Below, piece by piece: positions 2,380-19,475 of a stretch of 19,475 bases of DNA. The notes beneath the pieces are model-generated. The model saw nothing but the letters and a program-made list of their open reading frames with translations. It ran no database searches and was not told the DNA's origin. The first letter of the stretch is position 1; each line of letters opens with the position of its first letter. The position numbers were made by a program, and so were the translations under genes. The DNA comes from a virus (taxonomy: Duplodnaviria > Heunggongvirae > Uroviricota > Caudoviricetes): IMG/VR virus record IMGVR_UViG_2778261380_000011, positions 1 through 19,475 of that record. One strand, written 5' to 3'.

Positions 2380-2387
2380 GGTGAGAT

Positions 2388-3589: not shown

Positions 3590-3693
3590 GTTTTACAGAT
3601 AACTGGTCAGACGAAGAATTCATTCGTCTGATGAACAAAATGCTCAATCAGCACAAAGAACAGGAGAAAGATGATGATTCTGACTCTGAATGA
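3586..3693 (+). CDS. possible small acidic protein (35 aa) in the kil position
   Basis: ATG overlaps cIII stop (ATGA at 3586-3589); not in ORF track (short); overlaps start of next gene in another frame. Confidence 0.3.
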   Translation: MSFTDNWSDEEFIRLMNKMLNQHKEQEKDDDSDSE

Positions 3694-3982: not shown

Positions 3983-4881
3983 GCAATATCGTTGAATTCG
4001 TTAAACAGCAAGAGCAGTTATTCTGCGGAGCATTGACTGAACAGACGGTGACATGGGCTAAGGAAAGCCAGTTTGCAATTCAGTATTTCCAGAAAAATGA
4101 TTACCTGGCTAAAACGGCACTGGCAAATCCAACCAGCGCACAGAACGCCATCATCAATGTTGCGGCGATCGGCATCACCTTAAACCCGGCCAGCAAACTT
4201 GCTTATCTAGTTCCGCGCGACGGCATGGTTTGCCTTGATATCAGCTATATGGGATTACTTCACCTTGCACAGTCGACAGGATCAATTAAGTGGGGGCAAT
4301 GCAAACTGGTGTACTCAAACGACACCTATGAATCAAACGGCCTTGATTCAGCACCAACCCACAAATACAACGCATTTGGTGAGCGAGGCTCTATTGTTGG
4401 TGGTTATTGTACGGTTAAAACAGCAGATGGTGACTACCTCACTGAAGAAATGAGTCTGGCAGAAATTAAAGCAGTGGAAGCAACGAGCAAGGCAAAGAAT
4501 GGACCGTGGAAAACATTCTGGGAAGAGATGGCACGTAAAACAATAGTTAAACGCGCCAGCAAATACTGGCCTAAAGCCCAGCGACTGGATAATGCCATTC
4601 ACCTGCTTAACGAAGATGAAGGTATGCATCAGGAACCAGTTATGCCGCACAAATCAGAGGAAGATATCCGCGAAGATGAACGGAAACGCCAGCAGGAAAT
4701 AATGGAAAAAGCACAACTTCTTTGTGATGAAATGGCTCAGGCAGAAAACATGGATGATTTGAAGCGATATTTTGCAGAAGCATATCGCCTGACATCTGGA
4801 ATGAAATTGCAGCAGAACGTACAAGCCATTTACATAGAATGCAAAGCGAAACTGGAGGTTGCCAGTGAGCAAACTATATGA
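3979..4881 (+). CDS. recT: RecT-family single-strand annealing recombinase
   Basis: Motif NGPWKTFWEEMARKTIVKRASKYWP resembles RecT NGPWVTHWEEMAKKTAIRRLFKYLP (from memory); 300 aa; coupled to flanking genes. Confidence 0.88.
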   Translation: MSNIVEFVKQQEQLFCGALTEQTVTWAKESQFAIQYFQKNDYLAKTALANPTSAQNAIINVAAIGITLNPASKLAYLVPRDGMVCLDISYMGLLHLAQSTGSIKWGQCKLVYSNDTYESNGLDSAPTHKYNAFGERGSIVGGYCTVKTADGDYLTEEMSLAEIKAVEATSKAKNGPWKTFWEEMARKTIVKRASKYWPKAQRLDNAIHLLNEDEGMHQEPVMPHKSEEDIREDERKRQQEIMEKAQLLCDEMAQAENMDDLKRYFAEAYRLTSGMKLQQNVQAIYIECKAKLEVASEQTI

Positions 4882-5347
4882 AATAGCCAATGAATACGCA
4901 AAATTGATGGATTCAGATTTAGAGCCAGAGATGATTGCTGACACAATAGAAGGCATGGAAGGAGAATTTACCGATAAAATAGAGCAACTTCTTGCCATTA
5001 TTAAAAATGAATCTGGTTATGCTGAACGCCTCAAGGACGAGGCAAAATCACTGAATGAACGAGCCGCAGTAATTCAAAATAAGATTGACAGCATTATGGC
5101 GTATATAGCGTCATCGCTTGAAATGGTTGGCAAGAAAAAGATTCGAGCGGGTATTCACCAGGTAACAATCCGCAAACCGTCAGAAACTGTAGAAATCATC
5201 GACTCAAGCGCCCTTCCTCCTGAATACGTTGAGTTTGAAACGACAATTAAAGCCGACAAACTGGCAATCAAACACCAACTAAAAGCAGGAATAAATATCC
5301 CCGGCGCTCAACTCAAAGTTGGGAAACCTTCACTTCTTATCAAATAA
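4865..5347 (+). CDS. hypothetical coiled-coil protein (about 160 aa) in RecT-partner position, possibly Siphovirus Gp157-like
   Basis: GTG 4865 preceded by GGAGG (4854-4858), overlaps recT stop; family assignment is tentative. Confidence 0.55.
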   Translation: MSKLYEIANEYAKLMDSDLEPEMIADTIEGMEGEFTDKIEQLLAIIKNESGYAERLKDEAKSLNERAAVIQNKIDSIMAYIASSLEMVGKKKIRAGIHQVTIRKPSETVEIIDSSALPPEYVEFETTIKADKLAIKHQLKAGINIPGAQLKVGKPSLLIK

Positions 5348-5358
5348 CGGTATCGCCT

Positions 5359-5673
5359 ATGAAAAAGACTCCATGGGAGAAATGGGAAGTCGATTTCTTA
5401 CGCGAAGTAGCGGCGACAATGCCAGTTGAAGTTATCGCAGAAAAACTGGAAAGGACTGAAAAAGCAGTAATGGCGAAAGCAACAAGGATTGGCGCTGACA
5501 TTGTTAGCCGACTTCGTGGAAGACGCTGGACAAGAGCCGAAGTATCACTTTTCGGTAAGTTCTCCGCAGAAGAAATAGCAATTGCAACCTGCCGCTCAAT
5601 TTATTCAGTAAGAGCTATGCGATACAAGCTAAAAAAACTCGATGAAGAAAGAGCAGGCATACGAATAAATTAA
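5359..5673 (+). CDS. hypothetical protein (104 aa)
   Basis: ORF in operon context; weak SD. Confidence 0.55.
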
Positions 5674-5689
5674 CAAAGAGGAATTTACC

Positions 5690-5854
5690 ATGAGAGGACT
5701 TGCATACAATCCCGGCATTCTTCCGGCAGAAATGATTATTCGCCAACGCGTAAAGCCAATGCCATCGAGAGAGGAATTGCTTAAGAGAAATTCTTTTCCA
5801 TCAGTGAATCAAAACAAATATCTGAATGCGATGTGGAGGAGTGGGAAGAAATGA
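5690..5854 (+). CDS. hypothetical small protein (54 aa)
   Basis: ATG 5690 preceded by AAGAGGA; stop overlaps next start (ATGA at 5851-5854); not in ORF track. Confidence 0.45.
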
Positions 5855-6360
5855 AACAAATGTCACTAATTGAGATGGATGGATTTCTGAAAGGTAAATG
5901 CATCCCACGAGATTTAAAGGTTAACGAAACAAACGCTGAATATCTTGTCCGTAAGTTCGGTGAACTTGAATCAAAACTGGAAACGGCGTTGCGGGAGTGT
6001 CGTTCTGCTGGAATCACGATTGATAACCTTGAGGCCAAGTGCGCGGCGCTGGCAGCGGAGAGTGTGGGGATGAAGAAGTTCTGCAAAGACGCTGCATTCG
6101 ATGCCGATTACGAAGCAGAGCTAGGTATGGAGCGTGGTGGATTCAGTGATGCGCTTAACGAAATCAAAACCCCAGCCACCGATGCTTTCCTGTCTGAAGT
6201 GCGGGCGCAGGGCGTGGAGATGCTGGCAAAAAATCATCAGAGTATCGTCAATGCACTTAAGGGAGATTCTTTATTTTCTGATGGTGAATACCTGCATGCA
6301 GCTATTGTTTCCGCAGCTGTATATTTCGCTGCAGAGCTTCGCAAAGGAGGCAACCAGTGA
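5851..6360 (+). CDS. hypothetical protein (169 aa)
   Basis: ATG 5851 with GGAGG upstream; ORF-track start 5833 is a GTG extension. Confidence 0.65.
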
Positions 6361-6611
6361 GTAATTCAGCACGACTACAGCTTGGTTTTTCACCGCTATC
6401 AAAAACTATCATGCTGGCAAAAATGCGCTATGTTGAAGGTGGACGTATGCGCGTTGGCAATGATCCAGGTCGTGATGTTACCAATGAGGCTGCTCAATTG
6501 GTGTGGCGACTGGTCATGGCTGAAGGTGGTGAGATCGCGTGGGAGCTGGATGATGGTTCTCGCATGGTGTTGAAGGCAGAAAAGCAGGAGGCAACCAGTG
6601 AGCAAGATTGA
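6357..6611 (+). CDS. hypothetical protein (84 aa) bounded by identical 17-mers
   Basis: GTG 6357 overlapping preceding stop, preceded by AGGAGG; ends within second copy of aggaggcaaccagtgag. Confidence 0.45.
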   Translation: MSNSARLQLGFSPLSKTIMLAKMRYVEGGRMRVGNDPGRDVTNEAAQLVWRLVMAEGGEIAWELDDGSRMVLKAEKQEATSEQD

Positions 6612-7584
6612 TTATCAGGCACTGCGTGCTAAGGCAGAAAAAGCAACGTGTGGCGAGTGGTCGCTCGAATATGGAGAGAGCCGATTTGATGGTGATGATG
6701 CGCTAATTCATCGTGAAGTTGCTGGATATATTCCCATTTGCAGAATTGAAGGAGCGCATCCAGAAAGCGGTTTCGATGAAGATTTCCAAATGGAACAGCA
6801 GGCCAATGCTGAATTCATCGCCGCAGCCAATCCGGCTACCGTACTGGCGCTGCTGGATGAACGGGAAAGAAACCAGCAATACATCAAACGCCGTGACCAG
6901 GAGAACGAGGAAATTGCGCTTACGGTAGGGAAGCTGCTAATCGAAAACGGCCGGCTTGTTGCCGATACGCTACGCCACTTAGCTGATAACGAAATCGACT
7001 CTGATTATTTTGCTATCACCTCAACTAATGAGAACGGTACTGAAATTGATCATGAGATGTCTATTACCGATTACGCACTGCAAGCTGCCGGAACTGTAGA
7101 CGAATTGGTTGCGGCGCTGGAAGCCGCAAAATCAAAACTCAACGAGCAGCGTGAATATTACGAGGGAGTAATCGCGGATGGGAGTAAGCGTATTGCTGAA
7201 CTGGAGAAAAGCGAAGAGCAACTCATCAATGAGCGTGACCATGCTGAGTCTGCTTTAGCTGATATGTACTTTGCAGCAACCGGTAACAGGCCGGAGTGGA
7301 GCAACTGGTTCGGCTTTTCAGATGCTGTCGATGCCGTGGTTGACAGAATAGCTGATTTAGAAGCCAAACAGCCATCGCCGGTAGTGCCGGATAATGCATC
7401 AGAGTCGCTTGCTTATGCTTACAAAGAGCTTACGCCTGAGATTATGCGCGGTCATATCGCTGTATTCGAGCGATATGGAATAGCCCCAAACGATAGCATT
7501 ACCACAATTCAGGCACTGCGAATCGCGCTGGATGGTATAGAGCGGAGCGACGCCATGCTTCAGGGAGGTAATAATGACCAATAA
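6598..7584 (+). CDS. Ead/Ea22-like family protein
   Basis: GTG 6598 after AGGAGG; N-terminus MSKIDYQALRAKAEKATCGEW resembles Ea22-like prophage proteins (from memory). Confidence 0.7.
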   Translation: MSKIDYQALRAKAEKATCGEWSLEYGESRFDGDDALIHREVAGYIPICRIEGAHPESGFDEDFQMEQQANAEFIAAANPATVLALLDERERNQQYIKRRDQENEEIALTVGKLLIENGRLVADTLRHLADNEIDSDYFAITSTNENGTEIDHEMSITDYALQAAGTVDELVAALEAAKSKLNEQREYYEGVIADGSKRIAELEKSEEQLINERDHAESALADMYFAATGNRPEWSNWFGFSDAVDAVVDRIADLEAKQPSPVVPDNASESLAYAYKELTPEIMRGHIAVFERYGIAPNDSITTIQALRIALDGIERSDAMLQGGNNDQ

Positions 7585-8188
7585 CAACCTAACAGACGAG
7601 CGCCTGAGCGTACTTATCCGTGTGGCTAGGGATTCTCTTGAATTGTATGAAATGGAGTTGCCTGTCATTGATGATGTAATGCTAGCGCTGGCCGAACTTC
7701 AGCAACGCCGCGCCGCCATGCTTCAGGGAGGCCAACCTGTAAACCAAACTTACAACTTGCCAGAATTAATCGAAGGCATGGAGGTTTCCATTGATGTAAG
7801 CACTTGTGATGCTGATTTAGGTAATCGCTATTTCGGCACCGTCACCGAGGCGTCAGAACTTGATACTGCCAAGAATGGTTACATCCTCCTGGTTCAGGAC
7901 GCAGAGCCAAACTTCGATGTAAATGGCAACTATCCGGTAACTCCGGATGGTTGGATAAGCTGTAGTGAGCGAATGCCAGAAATGGGAGAGCGACAATGCT
8001 ATGTGTTAGCAGCTGACTTTAAAAACAACTACCCACCAAACATCCCCAACACTCAGGTCGGCGTATATGGCGACTGGTTTAATGATGGCAATCCCACTTG
8101 GGATGACGGTGATGGCGAAGACCTGTATCTCAAAGAGGTAACCCACTGGATGCCTCTACCAGAACCGCCTCGATTAAAGGAGCTATAA
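7574..8188 (+). CDS. DUF551 domain protein with ea22-like N-terminal remnant
   Basis: C-terminal motif VTHWMPLPEPP typical of DUF551; N-terminal about 50 aa resemble an Ea22 C-terminal tail and end at a repeated 17-mer. Confidence 0.75.
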   Translation: MTNNNLTDERLSVLIRVARDSLELYEMELPVIDDVMLALAELQQRRAAMLQGGQPVNQTYNLPELIEGMEVSIDVSTCDADLGNRYFGTVTEASELDTAKNGYILLVQDAEPNFDVNGNYPVTPDGWISCSERMPEMGERQCYVLAADFKNNYPPNIPNTQVGVYGDWFNDGNPTWDDGDGEDLYLKEVTHWMPLPEPPRLKEL

Positions 8189-8302
8189 TAGTGAACTATT
8201 ATATCTATTTGTATTAAAAGAGTTTTTATAAAATAAATCTTCCAAAGCATGTAAAAACACTGTTAATCTTAACGTGTGTGAAACGTGAAGAGAGGTGTTG
8301 AA

Positions 8303-8584
8303 ATGAGCATTCATGGTTTGTGTGAAGATCAAGAGCAATGGGCTATGCAGACCCTTATGGGATCAGGAGTTCTTGCAAGGTGCAGAATCCATAACGATGT
8401 AATTTTAGACAGCGGAAATGATGCTTCTTCTGCTTATAAATTAGGAACTTACCTATATCAAAAAGATAATAGCTGCAACTTATTCAATACTCTTACTGAA
8501 GCCCGCGACGCAATAAAGGATGCATATGAATCGTATTGTGGGATTGATGATTGCCCACAATGCTCAAAATACATTGACGATTAA
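8303..8584 (+). CDS. hypothetical Cys-containing protein (93 aa)
   Basis: ATG 8303 with GAGGTG SD; AT-rich upstream region; followed by tandem hairpins 8605-8660. Confidence 0.55.
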   Translation: MSIHGLCEDQEQWAMQTLMGSGVLARCRIHNDVILDSGNDASSAYKLGTYLYQKDNSCNLFNTLTEARDAIKDAYESYCGIDDCPQCSKYIDD

Positions 8585-8672
8585 TAATATGAACAAGTAA
8601 CTATCCTCGCACTCGCGGGGATTTCTTTTATCTGAACTCGCTACGGCGGGTTTTGTTTTATGGAGATGATAA

Positions 8673-8840
8673 ATGCACTTCCGAGTCACAGGTGAATGGA
8701 ATGGAGAGCCATTCAACAGAGTTATCGAAGCAGAAAACATCAATGACTGCTATGACCACTGGATGCTATGGGCGCAGATAGCACATGCAGACGTAACCAA
8801 TATTCGAATTGAAGAACTGAAAGAACACCAAGCCGCCTGA
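8673..8840 (+). CDS. hypothetical small protein (55 aa)
   Basis: ATG 8673 preceded by GGAG; not in ORF track; followed by terminator. Confidence 0.45.
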   Translation: MHFRVTGEWNGEPFNRVIEAENINDCYDHWMLWAQIAHADVTNIRIEELKEHQAA

Positions 8841-8853
8841 TGGCGGTTTTTTA
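8832..8853 (+). terminator. intrinsic terminator
   Basis: ccgcc (8833-8837) / ggcgg (8842-8846) stem followed by tttttta. Confidence 0.6.
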
Positions 8854-8897
8854 TTACCTGATTTGCAGGTTCGATTCCCTATTCGGAGATAGCACTC

Positions 8898-9098
8898 ATG
8901 CAACACGAACTACAGCCTGATTCACTGGTTGATTTGAAATTCATCATGGCCGATACTGGCTTCGGTAAAACCTTCATCTATGACCGGATTAAGTCCGGCG
9001 ACCTGCCAAAAGCCAAAGTTATCCACGGGCGAGCAAGATGGTTATATCGTGACCATTGTGAATTCAAAAATAAGCTCTTAAGCCGCGCCAATGGGTAA
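8898..9098 (+). CDS. alpA: AlpA-family transcriptional regulator / excisionase-like protein
   Basis: 66 aa; LKFIMADTGFGKTFIYDRIKSGDLPKAKVIHGRARWLYRD fits AlpA/Xis winged-helix pattern (from memory); 250 bp upstream of integrase on the same strand. Confidence 0.8.
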   Translation: MQHELQPDSLVDLKFIMADTGFGKTFIYDRIKSGDLPKAKVIHGRARWLYRDHCEFKNKLLSRANG

Positions 9099-9346
9099 AA
9101 TAGCGGGTAAAATATTTCTCACATCTAAAAAATACCATTCCAATCAATCCCCTGCCGCTTCAAGTAGATGTCTGCAGGGGACACCATGAACACTTCTCAC
9201 TAAGTTCAATTAATTCCATAACTCACTGTTTTAACTGATATCATCTCCTTATACTCGTCCAGCAAAGTACCATTATTTCTAATGGAATCTATACATCTTT
9301 GCGTATAACATTGTGTATAACTGAGTTCGATCTTTTTTCTATACAC

Positions 9347-10522
9347 ATGCTGCTATCTGACATCCAAATAAAAAGAGCAAAACCGAAGGACAAACCCTAT
9401 ACGCTTAACGATGGTATGGGGCTATCACTCCTGATCGACACAGCGGGCAGTAAAGGCTGGCGTTTTCGCTATCGCTTTGCAGGTAAGCCTAAGATGATTT
9501 CCTTTGGCGTATATGGCGATGTGTCGTTGGCACAGGCACGTACCAAACGTGATGAAGCGCGTTCGATGTTAGCCAACGGGATAAACCCAAGTGAAGCCAG
9601 AAAAGCAGATAAGATTGCTTTGCAGTTCGCGCATGAGAACAGCTTTGAGTCTGTGGCCAGAGAATGGCACTCATCGAAAAAAGCCACCTGGTCAGAGGGT
9701 TATGCAAAAGAGGTTCTCAATTGTATGGAAAAGGATATTTTTCCTTTTATCGGCCAGCGCCCAATTGAGCAGATTGAACCATTAGAACTGCTAACCGTCC
9801 TGCAAAAAATAGAGAAAAGAGGTGCGCTAGAGCAAACCAGTAAGATCCGCCGCCGCTGTGGTGAAGTGCTTCGTTATGCTGTTGCCACTGGTAGAGCAAA
9901 GTATAATTTTGCACCCGATTTAGCTATCGCACTCAACAAACCTAAAACCCAACACTTCCCGTTCCTGACTGAAAGCGAGTTGCCCGAGTTCGTTAATGCT
10001 CTGGATAACTATCAGGGCAGTTTAGTTACCAAATACGCCACGCAGCTGTTGATGCTAACAGGCGTGCGAACAATTGAACTACGTGCAGCGGAATGGGCTG
10101 AGTTTGATTTAGATAATGCCTTATGGGAGATCCCCAAAGAACGGATGAAGAAACGCCGCCCCCATCTGGTTCCGTTATCAACTCAGGCGATCAATATCCT
10201 GAAAAAGCTGCAAGAAATAACAGGGAATTACAGCCTCGTTTTCCCTGGCCGGAATGACGTCAGTAAACCAATGAGCGAAGCCAGCATCAACAAAGTGATA
10301 AAACTACTGGGTTATCACGGTCGGTTAACGGGTCACGGTTTCAGGCATACCATGAGCACCATCTTGCATGAGCATGGGTTTGAAAGTGCCTGGATTGAAA
10401 TGCAGCTTGCGCATGTTGATAAGAACTCTATTCGAGGTACTTACAATCATGCGCAATATATTAAAGATCGACAAGTAATGATGGAATGGTACGCTAGCTT
10501 ATTAAATACGACCTGCTATTAA
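9347..10522 (+). CDS. int: tyrosine recombinase, P4-type integrase
   Basis: N-terminus MLLSDIQIKRAKPKDKPYTLNDGMGLSLLIDTAGSKGWRFRYRF typical of P4-family arm-binding domain; C-terminal HGFRHT (HxxR) and catalytic Tyr region RGTYNHAQY; ORF-track start 9299 is an extension. Confidence 0.92.
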   Translation: MLLSDIQIKRAKPKDKPYTLNDGMGLSLLIDTAGSKGWRFRYRFAGKPKMISFGVYGDVSLAQARTKRDEARSMLANGINPSEARKADKIALQFAHENSFESVAREWHSSKKATWSEGYAKEVLNCMEKDIFPFIGQRPIEQIEPLELLTVLQKIEKRGALEQTSKIRRRCGEVLRYAVATGRAKYNFAPDLAIALNKPKTQHFPFLTESELPEFVNALDNYQGSLVTKYATQLLMLTGVRTIELRAAEWAEFDLDNALWEIPKERMKKRRPHLVPLSTQAINILKKLQEITGNYSLVFPGRNDVSKPMSEASINKVIKLLGYHGRLTGHGFRHTMSTILHEHGFESAWIEMQLAHVDKNSIRGTYNHAQYIKDRQVMMEWYASLLNTTCY

Positions 10523-11452
10523 ATCCAGCATGAAACAAATATGGTGAGTAATTTGATACTGTTTGTTTTTTGGCAACCCAGGGAAATGCCTTACAGTTGG
10601 TTGACTATTGTAATAATAATAGTTAAGACCAATGTTGCTGCCAAACTGGGTTGGATGTTGGGGAACAAGATTTGTAATTTGATCTGAAACATCTAAAAAT
10701 TTTGCAGTAACATTTGAACTTCCTCGTTGCGTGTTGCTTGATACAAAATGACGAATCCAAACTGTATTCGCTTGTAAATTCTTGAACACCAAATGTGCGG
10801 CAACAGCAGAAGGTTGACCACCTCCAAGATCTAGTACCTGGCCAGTAATTGTATAATCGCCAAATCCTAAGTAATTTTGTCCCACGAATTGATGTGCGTG
10901 CGTGAAAAGTTCCGGCCCATTATAATCAGCATTTTTTGCTAACTTTCTAAAGTTATCGCTAATAATAATTAACTTCGACAAAGGAAGAAGAGCGCACTGA
11001 TTAGGAAGCATTTTATTATTTAAAACAACATGATAACTAATCAATTGATTTGTCGCCAACAACTGAATATCAGAGTTGGATAATGATGGATTATCATATA
11101 GAAGTGCAACTCGTCTATTTAAGTTAGCATTCAACCAATTATTAATATCATTAATCGTTGTATTGGGCTGAATAAGATATCCAGAGATGATATTATTTTT
11201 ATTTGTTAATACACTTGATAAATTTTGATTTAAAGTTAAGACGTTATTGTGTGAAGAAAAATCTTCCTGATAAGGATTAAGGATAACAATTATGTCAGAA
11301 TTCCAAACATTTAAACATGTTAATAAATTTCTCGTATTGACGTTAATTGGTTCTAAAATTGGTAGCAGACCATTTAGGCTAACTCCCTTCGCAACGAGGT
11401 CCCTAAGGCATAATAACTCTGTACTTCTCGCATACAAATATGGGCTATACAT
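10502..11452 (-). CDS. hypothetical protein (316 aa), second gene of AT-rich cargo operon
   Basis: ATG 11452 preceded by AGGAG; 21-nt gap after upstream gene; no recognisable domain; 3' end overlaps integrase 3' end by 21 nt (convergent). Confidence 0.8.
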   Translation of the reverse strand: MYSPYLYARSTELLCLRDLVAKGVSLNGLLPILEPINVNTRNLLTCLNVWNSDIIVILNPYQEDFSSHNNVLTLNQNLSSVLTNKNNIISGYLIQPNTTINDINNWLNANLNRRVALLYDNPSLSNSDIQLLATNQLISYHVVLNNKMLPNQCALLPLSKLIIISDNFRKLAKNADYNGPELFTHAHQFVGQNYLGFGDYTITGQVLDLGGGQPSAVAAHLVFKNLQANTVWIRHFVSSNTQRGSSNVTAKFLDVSDQITNLVPQHPTQFGSNIGLNYYYYNSQPTVRHFPGLPKNKQYQITHHICFMLDLIAGRI

Positions 11453-11473: not shown

Positions 11474-12355
11474 TCAACAAATTTTAATTTTTACATCCAT
11501 CAAATTCATGATGAATTCTTTTTGCTTTCTTGATAATGGTGTTGCATAACCTAAAACACGTAAACATGCTGGAAGAGAATAAATATAATCCAAAAAAACT
11601 TTATCGTTACATCTTTTTTTCATAGCAGAGATAAAGTATTTATTTGCTATGTTTAATGGCATCTGCATGAATATCTCTTTACAATATTCATAAACCAATC
11701 CGTTAGGCATATTTATTTTAGTTGAAGTGTAATCTTCTATTATAGCTAAGAACTCTTCCTTTCTAAGAACTGAAAACAAGCTGTCACTTTTAATATAATC
11801 AATATTTGAATCTGCCTCCTTAATGACACTCAATTGATCTTTTTTATTCAAAACCATAACTCCCACTCTGGGGAGATTTAAAGCACAATATTTACTTGCA
11901 TACTCTGGATGTGTAACTATATACACTTTATCAAAAACATCCAAATAATCAGGGGCTTGAGTAATCAACCTTTTTGGTGAATCATACTCTGTCTTAATCT
12001 CGTAAGCTGTAGACGTACCATTAAACACCGCAACATCCACTATAGAGTTTTTAATTGGTAACTCTATGGACGACGAACTTGTTTTTGGGCTGTGCTTACC
12101 GAATATTATTTTATTGACAAGTGCTGTCTTATAAACATATTCATTTCTATAATTCAGACGCAAAAAATCATATAATGATGTAAATAAATCCCTTAGTGAA
12201 ATCTCATGTTCATTATTATCATTGTTTGAAAACAGTGTTTCATAGCAGTAAGAATCAAAACTCCCAAATAAATCCGAAATATCCTTACCTTTTGCTAAGG
12301 ATGAAAAAATGGGGCGACGGAAAAATTTAGCATATTCCTTTTTATTATGACTCAT
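11474..12355 (-). CDS. hypothetical protein (293 aa) with PD-(D/E)xK nuclease-like motif, first gene of AT-rich cargo operon
   Basis: Motif SIVD(107)VAVF-x9-YE(119)IK(121) (nt 11993-12037); strongly AT-rich coding sequence. Confidence 0.8.
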   Translation of the reverse strand: MSHNKKEYAKFFRRPIFSSLAKGKDISDLFGSFDSYCYETLFSNNDNNEHEISLRDLFTSLYDFLRLNYRNEYVYKTALVNKIIFGKHSPKTSSSSIELPIKNSIVDVAVFNGTSTAYEIKTEYDSPKRLITQAPDYLDVFDKVYIVTHPEYASKYCALNLPRVGVMVLNKKDQLSVIKEADSNIDYIKSDSLFSVLRKEEFLAIIEDYTSTKINMPNGLVYEYCKEIFMQMPLNIANKYFISAMKKRCNDKVFLDYIYSLPACLRVLGYATPLSRKQKEFIMNLMDVKIKIC

Positions 12356-13034
12356 TACTCATACTCTATAAACATCATGCAATTTGATAAGTTATGACGA
12401 ATTCTCACCATCCAGTTACTACCTGTACATACTAATCAAAAAAAACGAGTACGCAAGATACGAAAGTACTTTTCTTGTTCACCAGTTAGCTTACCTTGAT
12501 CCTCACCAGCGACTGGAAGATAGGTAGCAGTATATGTGGAAACCTTCCCCTAGCTAGGTCTACAAACGTAGTTTGGGCATTTAGGCTCCACGATTCACGG
12601 TTTGACACGGCCTGATATCTGCACATTCGTTTTGATATGCAGCAATCGTGAAAAAGGAAAATATACGCTCGACAGACCAAAACGGCACTACACCGCACCC
12701 GCCTGCGGTTTTCATATCACTAAAAATTTTCAGCCTGGATTTTTTACAAACGATACCGCCAGTCCGTGCCAGTCCTCGAGATGTACTGCGATACAGGAAC
12801 TGAAAAGAATGAAAAGAAATTCATTTTTTTTCAGTTTTACTGTCCGTCGAATCTATGGCCTGAATACGCAACTCTATGATATTAAATGGATAATTAATTT
12901 TAGGTGTGTGATTTTATGAAGGTTTGTGAAACATGAAGAAGATAACCAGTTGAAAAATAATAATTTTATGACCGTATAAACTGAAATCCTGTGTTCAGGT
13001 TCCGGGAACAGATCGGCCATTCCCGACGCATACT

Positions 13035-13307
13035 TTACCCATTCTTTTGCGCAGCCAGCAGCAACTTTAAAGCCTTTTCCCGTTCCTCGGGTGGAATTGC
13101 ATCAATCAGCTCTTTAACCCTTCCCTGCCCGTTCAGCGCGCTTGGACTAACGGAATGGGAGAAAGCAACATTCATCACAAACGAGTGACCGCACTCCACA
13201 TTAGAGCAATAGCAGTACACATCGTACAGTTGTGGGTGTTTCCTGTTTGTTTTACCTATCCGTGCTACTGCCTGACATGTGGGGCAGTACATTCTCATCA
13301 TCTTCAT
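13035..13307 (-). CDS. Ogr/Delta-family zinc-finger transcriptional activator
   Basis: MYCPTCQ...YCYCSNVECGH Cys4 pattern as in P2 Ogr / P4 Delta; exact start among several N-terminal Met codons uncertain. Confidence 0.75.
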   Translation of the reverse strand: MKMMRMYCPTCQAVARIGKTNRKHPQLYDVYCYCSNVECGHSFVMNVAFSHSVSPSALNGQGRVKELIDAIPPEEREKALKLLLAAQKNG

Positions 13308-13373
13308 CGTTCTGTGCCCTATACTGTTGCCCGCCAGAAGAAGGGATTTGGATCCCTACCTCTTGTTCTGAAC

Positions 13374-13563
13374 GTGTAACACTGGTAACACGTGTAACGC
13401 TATTGATTTAAAAGGATTTAATCTGTTACCAGTTAGCAAAATCAAGAGGTAACGCGTGGTAACACACCATTTTTTGTTACCTCTGTTACCAGTCAGTATT
13501 TTTGACTGGTAACACTGAAGAACCGCATCAGTAACGGGTGTTACCTCTGTTACCAGTGTTACC
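13374..13563. repeat. iteron array: about 13 copies of TGTTACC / GGTAACA heptamer in both orientations, mostly phased at 9 bp; putative replication origin
   Basis: Copies at 13374-13399 (three tandem 9-mers), 13424-13430, 13448-13464, 13475-13490, 13508-13514, 13531-13563; located immediately downstream of primase gene. Confidence 0.75.
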
Positions 13564-13589
13564 TCATAAAAATAAGACTCACGCGATAA

Positions 13590-16277
13590 TCACTCAGGTT
13601 CAGCGCTTCCCAGTACCTGTGTATTGAACTGGTACACACGTTTAAGCCCTATTTCTGGCAGGCGAATGCTGTTTTGCGTCCGGCCATCTTCACCGGGTTT
13701 CAGCCAGCCCGCGTCCACACACAACCTGGCCACCTTACGCGAGTCAAATCCCTTACAGATCTCCTTCCAGCCTGACGGGAGAACGTAGAACGTCACAACC
13801 GGCTCTGTCACGTTGTCTCCTTTATCGACTTTTCTGAATCCCATCATTGAAACAGGCCGGTTCCTGTCGTCATTCCAGTCAGCAAACCGACTGAACTGAT
13901 TACGCGTCATGAAGTCCCGAACCTGTTCAAGTGCCGCTTTATCTTCCTGATTAGCTGTATGGCCCCGGTCAGCCATCCATGCAGCCAGACAGCTTTGAGC
14001 GGCACGAAAGGCCTCTCCCTCCGGCCATCCTGTGATGCCCGCTTTTGTGGCCAGCTCCCCGGCCATCGCAACCAGAGCAAAACGGGTAACAGCCCGGCCA
14101 ACCTGATTCCCGGCATTTTCCGGCGTCAGCCTTCGGGTATACTCTTTCAATAAGGCTTTCGCCTGACTGGTCAGTTCCGGCAGATCAGCGGTCAGGCAAT
14201 ACAGCCAGTCGCGGAATGGTGCACCATGATAATGCGCTACGTGCTGCTCAAGATGCTCAGCCAGGGTTTTCCCGCTACTGAAGCCATGAAGTTCTTCAAA
14301 CACGCCATACTTGCCCGAATCGCTTGGGATCTGGATCATTCTGACCTCAACCCCGGCATACGTACGTTCCCCGGCGCTTGCCGCATGCTCTACCAGTGAC
14401 AGTTCCCCGGTAGACAGAAACAACAGATTCCAGCGGTTGGTTTCCCTTACCGAACCATCTGTTCTGGCTCTGGCTTTGCCCTGCCCGTTAGCCAGCATAT
14501 AAGCGATATTTCCCGCCTCCCTGCCGTCAACCTCCCGGATTTCATCCAGCATCAGCGTGGCATCATTGCGGCGGCTCGCCGTTCCTTCTAAGGCATTCCC
14601 CGTCGCCCGCCACGTATGCCAGAAATCTGTTCCACCACATACTGATGCAGCCACTTTCATCGTCGTGGTTTTACCGTCTGTGGATTCCCCTTTGAGGTGA
14701 TAACCTCCACCGCCGATACCAACCAGTTTCAGAAGGGGGGCAGCAAATGCCAGACTCACCGCAAAGGCAAGACGGGCATTCTTTATGCAATAACGGCCTA
14801 TATTTTCACGCCAGCCCTCTGATGTGCCGCTGACACGAAAATCACGCCCCTGCACACTCGATGTTTGTAAGATGACTGACTGGGCTTCGCGCCCTATCAC
14901 TTCATCCTGGAGAACGTAAACCCCGCCGTGCCAGCCAGTTTTATTCACACAGGTTACTTTTCTGTCCGGTTTACACAGCGAGATATATTCCATCAGGAAT
15001 GCTCTGGCCATGCCGTTAATGTTGATGTAAGAAAGCCCGTTAACCAGCAGAACGCGGCGCAGTTCTTCCCCGCTACCGCCCAGCATCTCCATCGGCATTG
15101 CCCATTTACGGCTGTTTCCGTTGGTATCTTCCCATTCCAGCAAACGCCCGTAATTACTTCCATCAGCATCACTGGTGATTGCCGTCACCCGCAACGGACT
15201 GCAAATTTTGATATTACGTATCTCTGTATCACCATCAGACTTATTAACCAGCTTGTCGTACCACAAATATTCTTTTGTCAGCCGGAACCCTTCTGGTAAA
15301 CGGGTCTGCCCTTTGCCATGCAGCGTCATTTCTTCACGAAAGGCATCTCTCGCCCGTTCTTTCCCCACTTCCTGCCGATAATCATCCCAGTCAGCCTTAT
15401 GGCGTACCGGAGGGAGCGTTACCCAGCCATCCACCGCTTTGGCGGCTTTCTCTGCCTGAATACGCCCGGTGTTTTCTTTGCCGTCAGCCAGATCATTATC
15501 TCCGGCCAGAATGATCCGGGTTTCCGGCCAGCGTTTTCGGATCTGCTCCGTCACCTTCAGTAAATTGGTGGCAGCGACAGCCGCCACGATCCATCCTTCA
15601 GTCAGCAGACTGACGGTAAGCGCCGTGGCAAAACCCTCAGTGATAATCACCTGTTCAGGTGTTTCAGCGGGTATATCGGTCAGGGCAATGAATGCGCCAG
15701 ACAGCTGGCTACCGGGCAGCAGACTTTTATCCCCGTCAGGATTGATAAGCTGGCCACCAGTAATATTCCCGGAAATATCCGTCAAAGGCAGCAGTAATGA
15801 ACCGGTGGAAAATGTTATTCCGGCCAGATTCAAAGGCTGTGACAGCAAGGGAAGTGAATACCCGTGTAAGCTCTTATTTGTCAGATAGACCGGCTCACCA
15901 TTGCAGGACTGCTGTCTGAGTCTGGTATATCGCTCCGCGCCCGCTTCTTTTCCTGCGGCCTTTTTCCTGGCTGGCAATGCGGGCTTCTCCTGTATTTCTG
16001 GTAATGCAAGCGCCTCAGATACCATCCCGGCGACTTCTTTTATCTTTCTTCCTGTCACCAGACGAACCAGATCAAGACCATCGCCATGACCGCACTGATT
16101 ACAAAACCACGTCCCTCGCCCCGCTTTATCGTCCAGTCGAAAACGATCTTTTCCACCACAGGCAGGGCAAGCCCCATGATGTCCTGCGGACGGTACTTTA
16201 ATACCTAATGCTGACAGGATATAAGGCCAGCGCCCAATTGCAGCTCCGGAAATCGTGGATACAGACGGTGTTTTCAC
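13590..16277 (-). CDS. P4 alpha-type primase-helicase (895 aa)
   Basis: N-terminal zinc-binding primase motif CPACGG...WFCNQCGHGDG; Walker A GESTDGKTT; GTG start 16277 preceded by AGGAGG and overlapping upstream stop (GTGA). Confidence 0.9.
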   Translation of the reverse strand: MKTPSVSTISGAAIGRWPYILSALGIKVPSAGHHGACPACGGKDRFRLDDKAGRGTWFCNQCGHGDGLDLVRLVTGRKIKEVAGMVSEALALPEIQEKPALPARKKAAGKEAGAERYTRLRQQSCNGEPVYLTNKSLHGYSLPLLSQPLNLAGITFSTGSLLLPLTDISGNITGGQLINPDGDKSLLPGSQLSGAFIALTDIPAETPEQVIITEGFATALTVSLLTEGWIVAAVAATNLLKVTEQIRKRWPETRIILAGDNDLADGKENTGRIQAEKAAKAVDGWVTLPPVRHKADWDDYRQEVGKERARDAFREEMTLHGKGQTRLPEGFRLTKEYLWYDKLVNKSDGDTEIRNIKICSPLRVTAITSDADGSNYGRLLEWEDTNGNSRKWAMPMEMLGGSGEELRRVLLVNGLSYININGMARAFLMEYISLCKPDRKVTCVNKTGWHGGVYVLQDEVIGREAQSVILQTSSVQGRDFRVSGTSEGWRENIGRYCIKNARLAFAVSLAFAAPLLKLVGIGGGGYHLKGESTDGKTTTMKVAASVCGGTDFWHTWRATGNALEGTASRRNDATLMLDEIREVDGREAGNIAYMLANGQGKARARTDGSVRETNRWNLLFLSTGELSLVEHAASAGERTYAGVEVRMIQIPSDSGKYGVFEELHGFSSGKTLAEHLEQHVAHYHGAPFRDWLYCLTADLPELTSQAKALLKEYTRRLTPENAGNQVGRAVTRFALVAMAGELATKAGITGWPEGEAFRAAQSCLAAWMADRGHTANQEDKAALEQVRDFMTRNQFSRFADWNDDRNRPVSMMGFRKVDKGDNVTEPVVTFYVLPSGWKEICKGFDSRKVARLCVDAGWLKPGEDGRTQNSIRLPEIGLKRVYQFNTQVLGSAEPE

Positions 16278-17123: not shown

Positions 17124-17390
17124 TCCTTCAGATAGCGGGTAACGCTACCACCGGAGTTCCTACGCTCATGGGTGGTAGCCCAGACGGGGGTAGGAATACC
17201 GGCTCTGAAGGATACCGGCCAGCCCGAAAGCTGCCCCGCCTGGACTACCATAATTCTGATGATGTGGCGTAAAAAATAAAAAAATACAATCAGCCACCAC
17301 ACCATAAATTTTAGGTGAGTCAAAGCTGCGACACAAAAAAACACGCCTAGCGCGTGTAGTATCGCCTTCAGATAACACGGGTTCCTACGC
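17124..17390 (-). promoter_or_regulatory. structured leader with duplicated element (gttcctacgc at 17156-17165 and 17381-17390, each after ccttcagata) and a complementary gtaggaa motif (17190-17196) between them; P4 CI-RNA-like immunity architecture
   Basis: Direct repeat plus internal complement; inverted repeat gctaccacc/ggtggtagc (17135-17179) encloses the downstream copy just before the RBS. Confidence 0.45.
17334..17357 (-). terminator. intrinsic terminator/attenuator within the leader
   Basis: On minus strand: stem acacgc/gcgtgt (17341-17357) followed by U7 (rc of 17334-17340). Confidence 0.6.
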
Positions 17391-17419
17391 CCGGCTGCCG
17401 ATTTTGCGGCAACCTTTAA

Positions 17420-17449
17420 ACTATATCCCGCGCATTCCTGGTGAGGCAA
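17420..17449 (-). promoter_or_regulatory. sigma70-like promoter for the leader/replication operon (-35 TTGCCT rc of 17444-17449, 18-nt spacer, -10 TATAGT rc of 17420-17425)
   Basis: Hexamers read on minus strand upstream of the repeated leader element. Confidence 0.5.
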
Positions 17450-17552
17450 GAAATTTATAACCGAAAACTGATCATTGCCTGGATTAATTAACGCTGGCAT
17501 GCTTAAGCCTCTGCTTAAAAATAGTTCTTCATTTTTCCTGATGCTGTAAACG

Positions 17553-17587: not shown

Positions 17588-18592
17588 TCAATCCGCAAAC
17601 GTCAGGGTGCACTCATCAACAGCCGCGTACAGTTCAGGTTCACCGAGTGCATAACCTTCATTGCGCAGGTAGGAATGCACGTATTCACTGCTTTCATCAT
17701 CAAACTCAGCACGAAACCAGCGTGTTATCGCCTGAGTGTAAATATGCAGATTATCCAGCGTCGTTACTGCCAGACGCTTACCCGGCATAAACGGGGGAAT
17801 AAACGCAAAGCGGCCAGCAACAGAACTTGTAGCCATCTGTGCCGCATTCACATCAGACGGGCGGTCTGCGGCATTAAATAACTTCAGGCGTTGATGTGCT
17901 GCCAGCTCTGCCCCAACCAGTACAACCAGACGAGGATCTTCACGAAACTGCTCAGCAATAAGCTCTGTAATCAGATGGTTGGCCAGAGCATCAATATTTT
18001 TCCAGGTGCCAGTCTCTCCCAGAGTGACAGGCTCAGAGATGATTTGCTTTCCGTTCCCGTAGGCTTTCGCCAGTGCATGCCAGCCAATATTGACATCCTC
18101 GCCTTTTTTATTGATTTCCGGGTTTGTAGTATTTGCAATCGACACACCGTTGAAACCGACCCGCAGCATGTCCAGCGCATATGCCTGGGCAAAAAAGCTC
18201 TCAACCGTTTTCTCAAACTCATCCGGCACGCCGGTATGGTAAATATGAGACATATCGGAATAGCTGATCCGGGCGCAGGTATCCGTCTCTGTCAGAAAGA
18301 ACTCCGTACCATTGATTGCCATTTTTTTGTGGAAACGGCCACCATCCACACGTCCGGTATACAGTTCACTGGCACCAATATTGACGGCATTACCTGACAC
18401 GGCGTTAACATCACGTAGGGTAATATTTTTAATAAGCCACCCGGATTCCAGAATTGAGGTACGCAGTATATTTTCAGTAGGTTCGCTTAATGCAAAGCGT
18501 CTGTTTGATTCTTCCTGATAGTTAGTGCCAGTGACGAATTTATTATGATAACGACGTGCTGCGTCCGGCCTTTCAGTTTTGAAGGCATACAT
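17588..18592 (-). CDS. P2-family major capsid protein (gpN-like) homolog
   Basis: Segments LDMLRVGFNGVS, DALANHLITELIAEQFREDPRLVVLVGAELAA and C-terminal half align with P2 gpN as I remember it; ATG 18592 with AAGGTG SD. Confidence 0.7.
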   Translation of the reverse strand: MYAFKTERPDAARRYHNKFVTGTNYQEESNRRFALSEPTENILRTSILESGWLIKNITLRDVNAVSGNAVNIGASELYTGRVDGGRFHKKMAINGTEFFLTETDTCARISYSDMSHIYHTGVPDEFEKTVESFFAQAYALDMLRVGFNGVSIANTTNPEINKKGEDVNIGWHALAKAYGNGKQIISEPVTLGETGTWKNIDALANHLITELIAEQFREDPRLVVLVGAELAAHQRLKLFNAADRPSDVNAAQMATSSVAGRFAFIPPFMPGKRLAVTTLDNLHIYTQAITRWFRAEFDDESSEYVHSYLRNEGYALGEPELYAAVDECTLTFAD

Positions 18593-18614: not shown

Positions 18615-19475
18615 TTAAGAAAAGATTTTATTTTTGTACTCAGTAACCAGATTGTATTTCATTACATGCTCAACATAATCCCGGTCACTTACGACTGAAC
18701 GTAATACATAATTATCTGCTCGATAGTACTCCCTGTAAGCCATAGCTCTTGCCATTCCACCGTTATTTAATACATAACGATCAGTTGGAACGCTACAACG
18801 ACTAATAATTTCACTCACGGAATCAGATAAAGACTTGAGTGCATCAGTAATAAATTTAATATCACGGACAACGTCACTGTCATTAAATACAGAAATAAAA
18901 TCAGCAGGGATCTGGCCGGATTGAGGAAATATATTCAGTAAACGCTTATCGATTCCCTTCCCAATGTAGTTTCCTTCATCGGCCAGTACTCCCGGCAAAA
19001 GCTTGATCGTGCTCAATCGACTATGTTGTTCATTCAACCGGGAAACAGCCAGATGGTAATACCGTTCAGCATCCGCTCGTTCAGCATGCCCCATTTTATT
19101 CGTTTTGGCTTCAGCAATGCTACTGACGCCGTTTTTTGAGAATGTGCTTTTCCATGCAACTTCCGCATTTGTCACTTCACGCTGCCGGAAAGATAACTCT
19201 TCCTCTTCCTGACGACACAACTGGGCATAACGGCTCAGGAGCAGGTTGATCTCATTCGCCACAGTTTCCGTATCAGGTACTGTTAACCCCGTAAGTGAAT
19301 ACAGCTTTTCACCTTTAGCTCGCAGCTTATTCAGTGAATATATTTCAATAATACGCACAATACAGGCCGTGTCGCTATGAGTCTCTTTAAATGATCTTAC
19401 TTTGTAACTATCTAACACCGACACATGTTCGTTCTTAATTGATGCCAATTTCTTCTTAAAAACATTGTCAACCAT
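18615..19475 (-). CDS. hypothetical protein (286 aa), AT-rich
   Basis: ORF begins with ATG exactly at window end (rc of 19473-19475) and ends 22 nt before capsid gene; no family recognised. Confidence 0.65.
   Translation of the reverse strand: MVDNVFKKKLASIKNEHVSVLDSYKVRSFKETHSDTACIVRIIEIYSLNKLRAKGEKLYSLTGLTVPDTETVANEINLLLSRYAQLCRQEEEELSFRQREVTNAEVAWKSTFSKNGVSSIAEAKTNKMGHAERADAERYYHLAVSRLNEQHSRLSTIKLLPGVLADEGNYIGKGIDKRLLNIFPQSGQIPADFISVFNDSDVVRDIKFITDALKSLSDSVSEIISRCSVPTDRYVLNNGGMARAMAYREYYRADNYVLRSVVSDRDYVEHVMKYNLVTEYKNKIFS

What the first reader, a model, noticed from the sequence alone, without database searches (positions are those of the whole stretch)
13035..13307. Ogr/Delta-type zinc-finger activator immediately upstream of the cargo operon
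The Cys4 activator is the nearest upstream gene on the same strand as the cargo operon. Ogr/Delta proteins activate late promoters during P2/P4 development, so the cargo might be induced during helper or satellite activation. I scanned 12356-12500 for the TGT-N12-ACA Ogr box and did not find one.
Basis: partly seen in the sequence, partly recalled or inferred. Interest (0 to 1): 0.4.

Follow-up and report, generated by a model that had tools for sequence, protein, structure and literature searches.

The report
Satellite late-gene activator beside cos site
The gene is a real Ogr/Delta-type zinc-finger regulator, but it belongs to an 11-kb phage satellite, and a DNA-packaging (cos) site separates it from the defence-like cargo, which is made without induction, so the proposed activator-to-cargo link is not supported.

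Summary
Window 13035-13307 (minus strand) encodes a 90-aa Ogr/Delta zinc-finger protein (Pfam PF04606, E=5e-14; exact CX2CX22CX4C). It sits in an 11-kb island at tRNA-Arg (argW), present in 421 of 5426 complete E. coli genomes.

"Immediately upstream of the cargo" is misleading. The 679-bp gap holds 350 bp of conserved backbone ending in a near-invariant motif (12685-12706). That motif is the cohesive-end site of ESSI-2-like P2-relatives (Peduoviridae). The same phages encode the closest phage homologues of this protein (48-53% identity). I read the island as a P4-type satellite of those phages and the gene as its Delta equivalent, most likely switching on helper late genes; that step is inferred.

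Evidence against control of the cargo (an sce7726/sce7725 pair; P4 cII is also sce7726-family):
- No TGT-N12-ACA in 12356-13034, and near-matches fall below chance.
- The cargo and its leader are a swappable cassette.
- Published proteomics found the identical sce7725 protein in uninduced overnight cultures.
- Relatives keep full-length cargo ORFs beside decayed ogr genes.

One caveat: about 17 different cargo types all point the same way as ogr, so read-through boosting is not excluded. This is an ordinary family member in a possibly undescribed satellite lineage.

The parts
13035..13307 (-). Ogr/Delta-like zinc-finger gene (90 aa; CX2CX22CX4C at C8, C11, C34, C39). It carries a conserved C-terminal extension that is shared with the ESSI-2-type phage regulators and absent from P2 Ogr.
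13364..13381 (.). The only TGT-N12-ACA match in the island (TGTTCTGAACGTGTAACA), centred 65 bp upstream of the ogr-like ATG. Its TGTTAC half is the last iteron. The ACA half is kept in only some lineages.
   Evidence: positive control on P4
13372..13566 (.). Array of GGTAACA/TGTTACC iterons between the primase gene and ogr. It is a putative replication origin, comparable to the P4 crr/ori type-1 repeats that lie downstream of alpha.
13003..13025 (-). GC-rich hairpin directly after the ogr stop codon. A CCGGG..CCCGG stem is conserved across the family while the loops vary. The U-tract is weak or absent in the window copy, so it is a possible weak terminator.
12685..13034 (-). Conserved non-coding backbone that continues after ogr. 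Similarity among related islands stops a few bases beyond 12685.
12798..12836 (.). Palindrome AACTGAAAAAAAATGAA..TTCA..TTTTCAGTT, one of several TTTCAGT/ACTGAAA repeats. It is shared with the ESSI-2-type phage cos region and is probably a terminase-binding part of cos.
12685..12706 (-). cos cleavage motif GCAGGCGGGTGCGGTGTAGTGC. The 15-nt stretch GCGGGTGCGGTGTAG (12688-12702) is the sequence repeated at both ends of the ESSI-2 genome record.
12356..12684 (-). Cargo-specific, AT-rich leader. It is not conserved even in the relative that carries the same cargo type. The cargo promoter is presumed to be here but was not pinned down.
11474..12355 (-). Cargo gene 1, an sce7726-family protein, the same family as P4 cII of the gop-beta-cII defence system.
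10502..11452 (-). Cargo gene 2, an sce7725-family protein (WP_000287253.1), detected by proteomics in uninduced cultures.
9347..10522 (+). P4-type tyrosine integrase of the island, convergent with the cargo and overlapping it by 21 bp. The start is taken from the RefSeq annotation; the longest ORF starts at 9299.
9172..9186 (+). att core, the last 15 nt of tRNA-Arg, at the junction between the lambdoid prophage on the left and the island.
13590..16277 (-). Primase/helicase with zinc-ribbon, Toprim and DUF927 domains. The N-terminal 320 aa are 38% identical to P4 alpha.
17168..17426 (-). C4-type antisense RNA (17168-17255) with isrK/a1b1-type target elements (17336-17426), upstream of an Icd-like ORF. 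It is a presumed immunity switch lying upstream of primase and ogr in the same transcription direction.
17588..18592 (-). P2-family major capsid homologue, 48-50% identical to the capsid protein of ESSI-2-type phages.

Best explanation
The gene encodes the Delta-equivalent late-gene activator of an 11-kb P4-type satellite integrated at tRNA-Arg. The satellite's helpers are ESSI-2-like (HP1/K139-organised) peduoviruses, not P2 itself. The gene is the last one of the long leftward backbone: AlpA, a 286-aa protein, a capsid homologue, the C4-RNA/Icd immunity region, primase, the ori iterons, then ogr. It lies directly before the satellite's cos site. The likely sequence of events has three steps. 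First, in the integrated state the C4-type immunity RNA keeps the downstream genes, including ogr, off (inferred from P1 c4 and P4 CI). Second, when a helper infects or is induced, the satellite operon is expressed and the Ogr-like protein turns on the helper's two divergent late operons, as P4 Delta does for P2 (inferred from homology; its DNA site is unknown and probably not TGT-N12-ACA). Third, helper terminase cuts at 12688-12702 and packages the island. The sce7726/sce7725 cargo is a separate cassette inserted just beyond cos in the satellite's variable hotspot. It is expressed from its own leader in ordinary growth, independently of the Ogr-like protein.
For: Family: PF04606 at E=5e-14 with an exact CX2CX22CX4C.

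Satellite context: the island is tRNA-Arg, int, cargo, ogr, primase, Icd/C4, P2-type capsid, AlpA-type HTH, bounded by a 19-nt direct repeat of the tRNA end. The primase N-terminus is 38% identical to P4 alpha. There is an Ash-family hit and a C4 RNA. A full Cronobacter relative has the same order.

cos and helper:
- 150 bp ending at 12685 match ESSI-2, ev040, ev015, ev129 and vB_YenM_324 at 68-77% identity.
- The ESSI-2 record ends ...GCAGGCGGGTGCGGTGTAG and starts GCGGGTGCGGTGTAGTGCC.
- A sequencing adapter is assembled inside the same motif in ev040, which marks a physical DNA end.
- The exact 22-mer occurs in at least 119 IMG/VR contigs, and 95 of them carry ev040-like tail genes beside it.
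- The best phage homologues of the protein are the regulators of these same phages, at 48-53% identity with the shared C-terminal extension and the KTNRKH loop.

Cargo independence:
- No Ogr box in 12356-13034.
- Similarity between islands ends at cos, after which about 17 different cargoes follow.
- The leader is not conserved even where the cargo type is the same.
- WP_000287253.1 was found with 14 peptides and 59.8% coverage in overnight MH broth.
- Loci with a stop codon, frameshift or 5' truncation in ogr keep full-length cargo ORFs; L015 (504 and 197 aa) compares with L016 (505 and 195 aa), which has an intact backbone.
- P4 hotspot systems defend when cloned with native promoters and without P4 (PMC9122126).
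Against: - No binding site for this protein was identified anywhere. The conserved dyad in the helpers' late-promoter region (ATTCGGWTATAAC..CCGAA) is only a candidate, and it is absent from the satellite.
- Mobilisation of this island by an ESSI-2-like phage has not been shown. Such prophages were found in only 48 of 5426 complete E. coli genomes, against 421 with the island.
- The cargo promoter was not located; no sigma-70-like site upstream of the cargo start codon passed the scan.
- The proteomics shows basal expression only and does not exclude further induction.
- All cargo types are co-oriented with ogr, which an entirely independent cassette does not obviously require.
- Silencing of ogr by the C4-type RNA is by analogy only.
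Confidence: 0.6

Rival explanations
1. One reading: the Ogr-like protein binds upstream of the cargo and directly activates a late-type cargo promoter, so the cargo is off until helper or satellite activation.
For: It is the nearest upstream gene on the same strand. Ogr/Delta proteins are late-promoter activators (PMC3931495; PMC8628076).
Against: There is no TGT-N12-ACA in the 679-bp gap, and near-matches are below chance. The candidate helper-type dyad is also absent. The cargo leader is cassette-specific and unconserved. The sce7725 protein is detected in uninduced cultures. Cargo ORFs remain full-length beside decayed ogr genes.
Confidence: 0.07
2. Dual expression: the cargo has its own constitutive promoter, but it is additionally boosted by transcription that runs from the satellite backbone through ogr and cos into the cargo once immunity is lifted. 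This would be indirect control, in which the Ogr gene is only a passenger on the transcript.
For: The first genes after cos are co-oriented with ogr in all of about 24 satellite loci and about 17 distinct cargo types. By contrast, systems in canonical P4 hotspots are reported in either orientation (PMC9122126). The post-ogr hairpin lacks a U-tract in the window copy, and no strong intrinsic terminator was found in the gap.
Against: About 680 nt of untranslated RNA lies before the cargo, which would be exposed to Rho, and no Psu homologue was found (inference). A conserved hairpin follows the ogr stop, and in several relatives a T-rich stretch follows the hairpin. Co-orientation can also be explained by avoiding transcription into cos or the backbone, and by the convergent integrase gene.
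Confidence: 0.2
3. The TGT-N12-ACA at 13364-13381 is a functional Ogr box. It would make the ogr-like gene auto-activated, or responsive to a P2-type helper Ogr, as P4 Psid does for delta.
For: The box centre is 65 bp from the ATG, which is compatible with a -55 site and a short leader. An exact box occurs at the same place in the window clade, in the Enterobacter/Trabulsiella clade and in the Franconibacter/Cronobacter clade. The same scan recovers the known late-promoter regions of P4.
Against: The TGT half is simply the last ori iteron. The ACA half is lost in the Kosakonia/Phytobacter/Siccibacter-type relatives. The cognate helper phages have no such box in their late-promoter region. The loop between the zinc ligands differs from that of P2 Ogr and P4 Delta. 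A single match in 282 bp is not beyond chance.
Confidence: 0.15
4. The island is a cryptic remnant, and the ogr-like gene no longer has a function in this host.
For: Resident ESSI-2-like prophages are about nine times rarer in E. coli than the island. Many related loci are decayed.
Against: In the window every backbone gene, the iterons, cos and both att repeats are intact, and the island is more than 99% conserved in 421 genomes. The ogr gene is intact in every locus whose backbone is intact. P4-type satellites do not need a resident helper.
Confidence: 0.1

Closest known systems
P4 Delta (and P2 Ogr, 186 B, PSP3 Pag): Cys4 zinc-finger late-gene activators
   Same: Same Pfam family and the same CX2CX22CX4C ligand spacing. 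It is encoded by a satellite whose helper encodes a homologue. It lies in the module next to cos and the variable hotspot.
   Different: Only 27% identical to P2 Ogr and 20% to P4 Delta. It scores 18 bits against a 116-bit cut-off on the P2 Ogr equivalog model. It is a single domain, not the tandem domain of Delta. It has a 35-aa C-terminal extension. The inter-cysteine loop differs (IGKTNRKHPQ...). It is the last gene of the primase operon rather than sitting between sid and psu. No TGT-N12-ACA boxes occur at its presumed targets.
Ogr-like regulators of ESSI-2-type peduoviruses (Seongnamvirus, Quadragintavirus, Evevirus, Tresduoquattuorvirus; for example ESSI-2 gp32 and ev040 gp26)
   Same: These are its closest phage homologues at 48-53% identity. 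They share the KTNRKH loop and the C-terminal extension. The same phages share the satellite's cos site.
   Different: The phage copies follow the portal gene inside a late operon. No function or binding site has been published for them as far as I could find.
P4-like satellites and their cos-adjacent defence hotspot (Rousset 2022; de Sousa and Rocha 2021)
   Same: It has a P4-type integrase at a tRNA gene, an AlpA-type regulator, an Ash/CI-type immunity region, an alpha-like primase followed by iterons, a Delta homologue, cos, and then a variable cargo before int. P4's own cargo includes an sce7726-family gene, cII.
   Different: No Sid or Psu was detected; a P2-family capsid homologue and an unknown 286-aa protein take that position. 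The helicase half of the primase is DUF927. The cos sequence is that of another peduovirus clade. The cargo is always co-oriented.

Membership tests
Ogr/Delta zinc-finger activators (PF04606) | Profile match above the curated threshold | tested here: met
   52.4 bits against a gathering score of 26.3, E=5.1e-14, model positions 2-47 of 47
Ogr/Delta zinc-finger activators (PF04606) | Four zinc-ligand cysteines spaced CX2CX22CX4C | tested here: met
   C8, C11, C34 and C39 are invariant in 18 family members and align with the Cys of P2 Ogr and P4 Delta. The spacing definition is from PMC3931495.
Ogr/Delta zinc-finger activators (PF04606) | Encoded by a P2-related phage or by a satellite of one | tested here: met
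   The island has a P4-type backbone and shares its cos site with Peduoviridae phages
Ogr/Delta zinc-finger activators (PF04606) | Target promoters carry TGT-N12-ACA near -55 | tested here: not met
   None in the gap before the cargo. None in the late-promoter region of the presumed helpers. One partly conserved match lies upstream of the gene itself. The scan finds the known P4 sites.
Ogr/Delta zinc-finger activators (PF04606) | Zinc binding and activation through the RNA polymerase alpha subunit | not testable with these tools
   Needs biochemistry or genetics, for example rpoA mutants
P2 Ogr orthologue (NCBIfam PRK09678 equivalog) | Score above the equivalog cut-off | tested here: not met
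   18.1 bits against a cut-off of 116
P4-like satellite (seven core components: int, psu, delta, sid, alpA, epsilon/ash, alpha) | Integrase, Delta homologue, AlpA-type regulator and Ash/epsilon-type region present | tested here: met
   The window gave int, Ogr_Delta and Phage_ASH hits. The AlpA-type HTH lies just outside the window in L001 and has PF05930 in L150.
P4-like satellite (seven core components: int, psu, delta, sid, alpha, alpA, epsilon/ash) | Alpha primase/helicase | tested here: inconclusive
   The N-terminal primase part is 38% identical to P4 alpha (E=2e-49). The C-terminal half is DUF927 and does not align.
P4-like satellite (seven core components: int, psu, delta, sid, alpha, alpA, epsilon/ash) | Sid and Psu capsid-size proteins | tested here: not met
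   No Pfam hit. The 286-aa protein against P4 Sid gives E=0.07. A P2-family capsid homologue is present instead. Psu was not compared directly.
P4-like satellite (seven core components: int, psu, delta, sid, alpha, alpA, epsilon/ash) | cos site shared with the helper and adjacent to a variable hotspot next to int | tested here: met
   The P4 layout is and the hotspot definition in PMC9122126.
gop-beta-cII defence system of P4 (cargo) | cII-type (sce7726) component plus gop and beta | tested here: inconclusive
   The window's sce7726 protein hits the PADLOC 'cll' model (E=1e-18) and P4 cII (E=9e-11). There is no gop. The sce7725 protein against P4 beta is not significant, with only an N-terminal resemblance.

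The most novel reading that the evidence does not exclude
The island represents a branch of P4-type satellites that I did not find described. It parasitises ESSI-2/HP1-organised peduoviruses, with which it shares cos. It carries its own gpN-type capsid gene in place of sid and psu. Its Delta-like gene sits at the cos-proximal end of the backbone. Every defence cassette is inserted co-directionally just beyond the cos cleavage site. On this reading, lifting C4-type immunity during helper attack sends late transcription across cos and boosts the defence cargo above its basal level.
Probability: 0.2. Interest if true: 0.55.

Novelty: new member of a known kind. Interest (0 to 1): 0.3.

Why it matters
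On its own the gene is an annotated member of a well-known regulator family. Its value lies in the context.
- It points to a common E. coli island (8% of complete genomes, including JJ1886-type strains) being a satellite of a little-studied clade of small P2-relatives, with a defined cos site and a defence hotspot.
- The Ogr-like proteins of this clade appear to use a DNA site other than the textbook TGT-N12-ACA.
- For the cargo, the practical message is that it should be treated as a constitutively expressed candidate defence pair related to P4 cII, not as a late-induced gene.

Tried and rejected
- TGT-N12-ACA with N11-13 spacing and one mismatch in the gap gave fewer hits than chance. The one N13 match (12992-13010) is just the hairpin after the ogr stop.
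- I derived a candidate box from the helpers' scaffold/terminase intergenic region (ATTCGGWTATAAC..CCGAA; one copy per phage in four of the five phages examined, ev239 was not scanned genome-wide). It has no copy in three satellites at one mismatch or fewer. The best half-site match, at window 17442-17454, has two mismatches, and I estimated about 0.5 such matches by chance.
- An 11-mer, TGGCAGGCAAT, is shared by some satellites' ogr upstream region and the ESSI-2 scaffold promoter region. I rejected it because the Cronobacter satellite and the other helpers lack it.
- I looked for a conserved promoter in the cos region reading into the cargo and found no convincing -35/-10 pair.
- The leaders of the two sce7726/7725 cassettes (window and L020) are unrelated beyond cos.
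- Rfam found nothing in 12356-13034. No tRNA was found in the window. ORFs 12486-12698 and 12602-12919 overlap the conserved cos DNA, whose alignment among relatives has indels that do not preserve a reading frame, so I treated them as spurious.
- The post-ogr hairpin could not be called a terminator, because the U-tract is absent in the window copy.
- I could not read Reiter et al. 1998 on Psid (not held).

Full report
OBSERVATION. The ORF at 13035..13307 is real and lies on the minus strand. Its 90-aa product, MKMMRMYCPTCQAVARIGKTNRKHPQLYDVYCYCSNVECGHSF..., matches Pfam PF04606 (Ogr_Delta) at 52.4 bits against a threshold of 26.3. Cysteines 8, 11, 34 and 39 give exactly the CX2CX22CX4C spacing quoted for P2 Ogr (PMC3931495), and they align with the ligand cysteines of P2 Ogr and P4 Delta. 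The protein belongs to a tightly conserved 90-aa enterobacterial family. It is not an orthologue of P2 Ogr itself: identity is 27%, and it scores 18 bits against a 116-bit cut-off on the equivalog model. The two genes downstream on the same strand are an sce7726-family protein (11474-12355) and an sce7725-family protein (10502-11452).

WHERE IT SITS. The right half of the window is 100% identical to an island found in 421 of 5426 complete E. coli genomes, including JJ1886. In a strain without the neighbouring prophage, the island directly follows tRNA-Arg. Its gene order there is:
- integrase;
- sce7725 and sce7726;
- ogr/Delta-like gene;
- DUF927 primase;
- two small genes;
- Icd-like gene;
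- P2-family capsid protein;
- a 286-aa protein;
- an AlpA-type HTH regulator.
A 19-nt repeat of the tRNA 3' end closes the island about 11 kb away. In the window, a lambdoid prophage is inserted in tandem at the same 15-nt core, at 9172-9186.

The backbone is P4-like in three respects. The primase N-terminus is 38% identical to P4 alpha. A dense array of GGTAACA/TGTTACC iterons follows the primase gene, much as crr follows alpha in P4. There is also an Ash-family hit and a C4-type antisense RNA with its target elements (E=4e-15). Sid and Psu were not detected.

THE 679-BP GAP IS NOT EMPTY. I aligned the DNA after the ogr stop codon in 19 related loci from 15 genera. About 350 bp of conserved backbone continue after ogr. 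They end abruptly at a near-invariant GCAGGCGGGTGCGGTGTAGTGC (window 12706-12685), and beyond that point every locus carries different sequence.

Several results identify this motif as a cos site:
- The last 150 bp of the conserved stretch match Peduoviridae phages ESSI-2, ESSI2_ev040, ev015, ev129 and Yersinia vB_YenM_324.
- The ESSI-2 record ends with ...GCAGGCGGGTGCGGTGTAG and begins with GCGGGTGCGGTGTAGTGCC. That is a 15-nt terminal redundancy of the kind left by filled-in cohesive ends.
- In ev040 a Nextera adapter is assembled inside the same motif, which marks a physical DNA end.
- In these phages the site lies between the integrase side and the end of the tail operon. From memory, this is where cos lies in HP1/K139-organised genomes.
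- The exact 22-mer occurs in at least 119 IMG/VR contigs. Ninety-five of them carry ev040-like tail genes beside it, and about 15 are satellite-type.

I therefore read 12685-12839 as the satellite's cos region and 12688-12702 as the cohesive-end sequence. The layout (activator, cos, variable cargo, convergent integrase) mirrors the P4 layout of psu, cos, hotspot and int (PMC9122126).

WHOSE ACTIVATOR. The closest phage homologues of the 90-aa protein are the Ogr-like regulators of the same phages that share the cos site. They are 48-53% identical. They also share the IRKTNRKH loop between the zinc ligands and the C-terminal extension, both of which P2 Ogr lacks. The satellite's capsid homologue is likewise 48-50% identical to the capsid protein of those phages. 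This is the P4 Delta / P2 Ogr relationship transposed to another peduovirus clade. The most likely job of the protein is therefore to switch on the helper's late operons during satellite development. That step is inferred, not shown.

THE OGR-BOX TEST. The window has only two exact TGT-N12-ACA matches, against 5.3 expected, and none lies in 12356-13034. Relaxed variants there are below chance. The scan does work on a known case: in P4, three of five matches fall in the regions upstream of sid and of orf88.

The presumed helpers have no TGT-N12-ACA in their divergent scaffold/terminase promoter region. What is conserved there is ATTCGGWTATAAC followed by CCGAA. That candidate site is absent from three complete satellites. 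The DNA site of this subfamily is therefore unknown and is probably not the textbook box.

The one box in the island (13364-13381) lies 65 bp upstream of the ogr-like ATG. Its TGT half is the last iteron, and its ACA half is kept in only some lineages. I leave it as unresolved.

IS THE CARGO UNDER THIS ACTIVATOR? Four lines of evidence say no.
1. No box lies upstream of the cargo, and the cos site lies in between.
2. The cargo and its 330-bp leader are a cassette. About 17 different gene sets occupy the position, among them a RexA-like pair, AAA-ATPase pairs and others. The leader is not conserved even in the Pantoea relative that carries the same cargo type.
3. A proteogenomic study of clinical E. 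coli grown overnight in Mueller-Hinton broth, with no inducer, detected WP_000287253.1 with 14 peptides and 59.8% coverage. That accession is annotated on the island copy that is 100% identical to the window. It shows basal expression only.
4. In decayed relatives the ogr gene carries a stop codon (L006), a frameshift (L011) or a 5' truncation (L005, L015, L021, L022), while the cargo ORFs stay full-length. The same cargo type is 504 and 197 aa beside a truncated ogr (L015), and 505 and 195 aa beside an intact backbone (L016). The ogr gene is intact wherever the backbone is intact.

By analogy, P4 hotspot systems defend when cloned with their native promoters and without P4 (PMC9122126).

In every satellite locus examined, the genes after cos point the same way as ogr and converge on the integrase. 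In canonical P4 hotspots, systems are reported in either orientation. The hairpin after the ogr stop is conserved, with loop variation, but it has no U-tract in the window copy. No strong terminator was found in the gap. Read-through from the backbone into the cargo after immunity is lifted is therefore possible. I give it about 0.2.

THE CARGO. The sce7726 protein hits the PADLOC 'cll' model. P4 cII is itself an sce7726-family protein. The P4 gop-beta-cII set protects against lambda and P1 (PMC9122126). The sce7725 protein shows no significant similarity to P4 beta beyond a short N-terminal resemblance. The cargo is AT-rich, at 30-36% GC against 42-57% for the backbone.

VERDICT. The proposed regulatory link to the cargo is not supported. 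The gene is an ordinary member of the Ogr/Delta family. The interest lies in the surrounding element, a P4-type satellite of ESSI-2-like phages. I found no paper that links ESSI-2-type phages to a satellite. Elements of this kind may nevertheless already be counted among incomplete P4-like sets in genome surveys.

Noticed in passing
window 12685-12839 (cleavage motif 12685-12706): A cos site is shared with ESSI-2-like Peduoviridae. It lies exactly at the border between the conserved backbone and the variable cargo. The ESSI-2 record has the 15-nt GCGGGTGCGGTGTAG at both ends.
   Followed up: yes
L144 (NC_049393.1, ESSI2_ev040) about 29600-29650: A Nextera adapter (TCGTCGGCAGCGTCAGATGTGTATAAGAGACAG) is assembled inside the cos motif of this public phage record. 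It is an assembly artefact, and it happens to mark the physical DNA end.
   Followed up: partly
window 17168-17426, minus strand: There are Rfam matches to C4 antisense RNA (81 bits), isrK (69 bits) and the c4 a1/b1 targets, upstream of an Icd-like ORF. This is a P1 c4-icd / P4 CI-type immunity module inside the satellite. The 196-aa 'Ash' ORF largely overlaps these RNAs.
   Followed up: partly
window 17588-18592 and 18615-19475, minus strand: The satellite encodes its own P2-family major capsid homologue, 48-50% identical to the helper's. An unknown 286-aa protein precedes it and shows no similarity to P4 Sid or to the helper scaffold. Together they may be a capsid-size module that replaces sid and psu.
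   Followed up: partly
window 13372-13566: About a dozen GGTAACA/TGTTACC iterons in both orientations lie between the primase gene and ogr. They are conserved across the family and are a likely replication origin.
   Followed up: partly
window 1-9171 and 9172-9186: A lambdoid prophage early region (repressor pair, RecT and others, on the plus strand) abuts the island at a 15-nt tRNA-Arg core, so the two are integrated in tandem. No integrase gene lies between its last ORF (8898-9098) and the att core.
   Followed up: partly
L002-L022, L150, L151 (DNA after cos): All of about 17 different cargo cassettes are inserted co-directionally with ogr and converge on int. In the helper phages, the same side of cos is occupied by the end of the tail operon on the opposite strand (58 of 62 distinct cases).
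   Followed up: partly
L005, L006, L011, L015, L021, L022, L151: Many relatives are remnants in which only (part of) ogr, cos, the cargo and int survive while the rest of the backbone is deleted. The cargo end of the island outlives the satellite functions.
   Followed up: partly
L146 (P4) 1746-2540 and 651-1718 compared with window 11474-12355 and 10502-11452: P4 cII is an sce7726-family protein. The N-terminus of sce7725 (YSPYLYARSTELLCLRDL) resembles that of P4 beta (YYPALRTRSAEMTGLNNL), but the comparison is not significant. A profile-profile comparison was not run.
   Followed up: partly
E. coli genome searches: The island is in 421 of 5426 complete E. coli genomes. ev040-like prophage head genes are in only 48, so most carriers probably lack a resident helper. 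Co-occurrence was not checked.
   Followed up: no
L001 about 25800-25870 (outside the window, near the island's right end): A run of about ten CCCAG pentanucleotide repeats lies upstream of the AlpA-type gene, close to the right att repeat.
   Followed up: no
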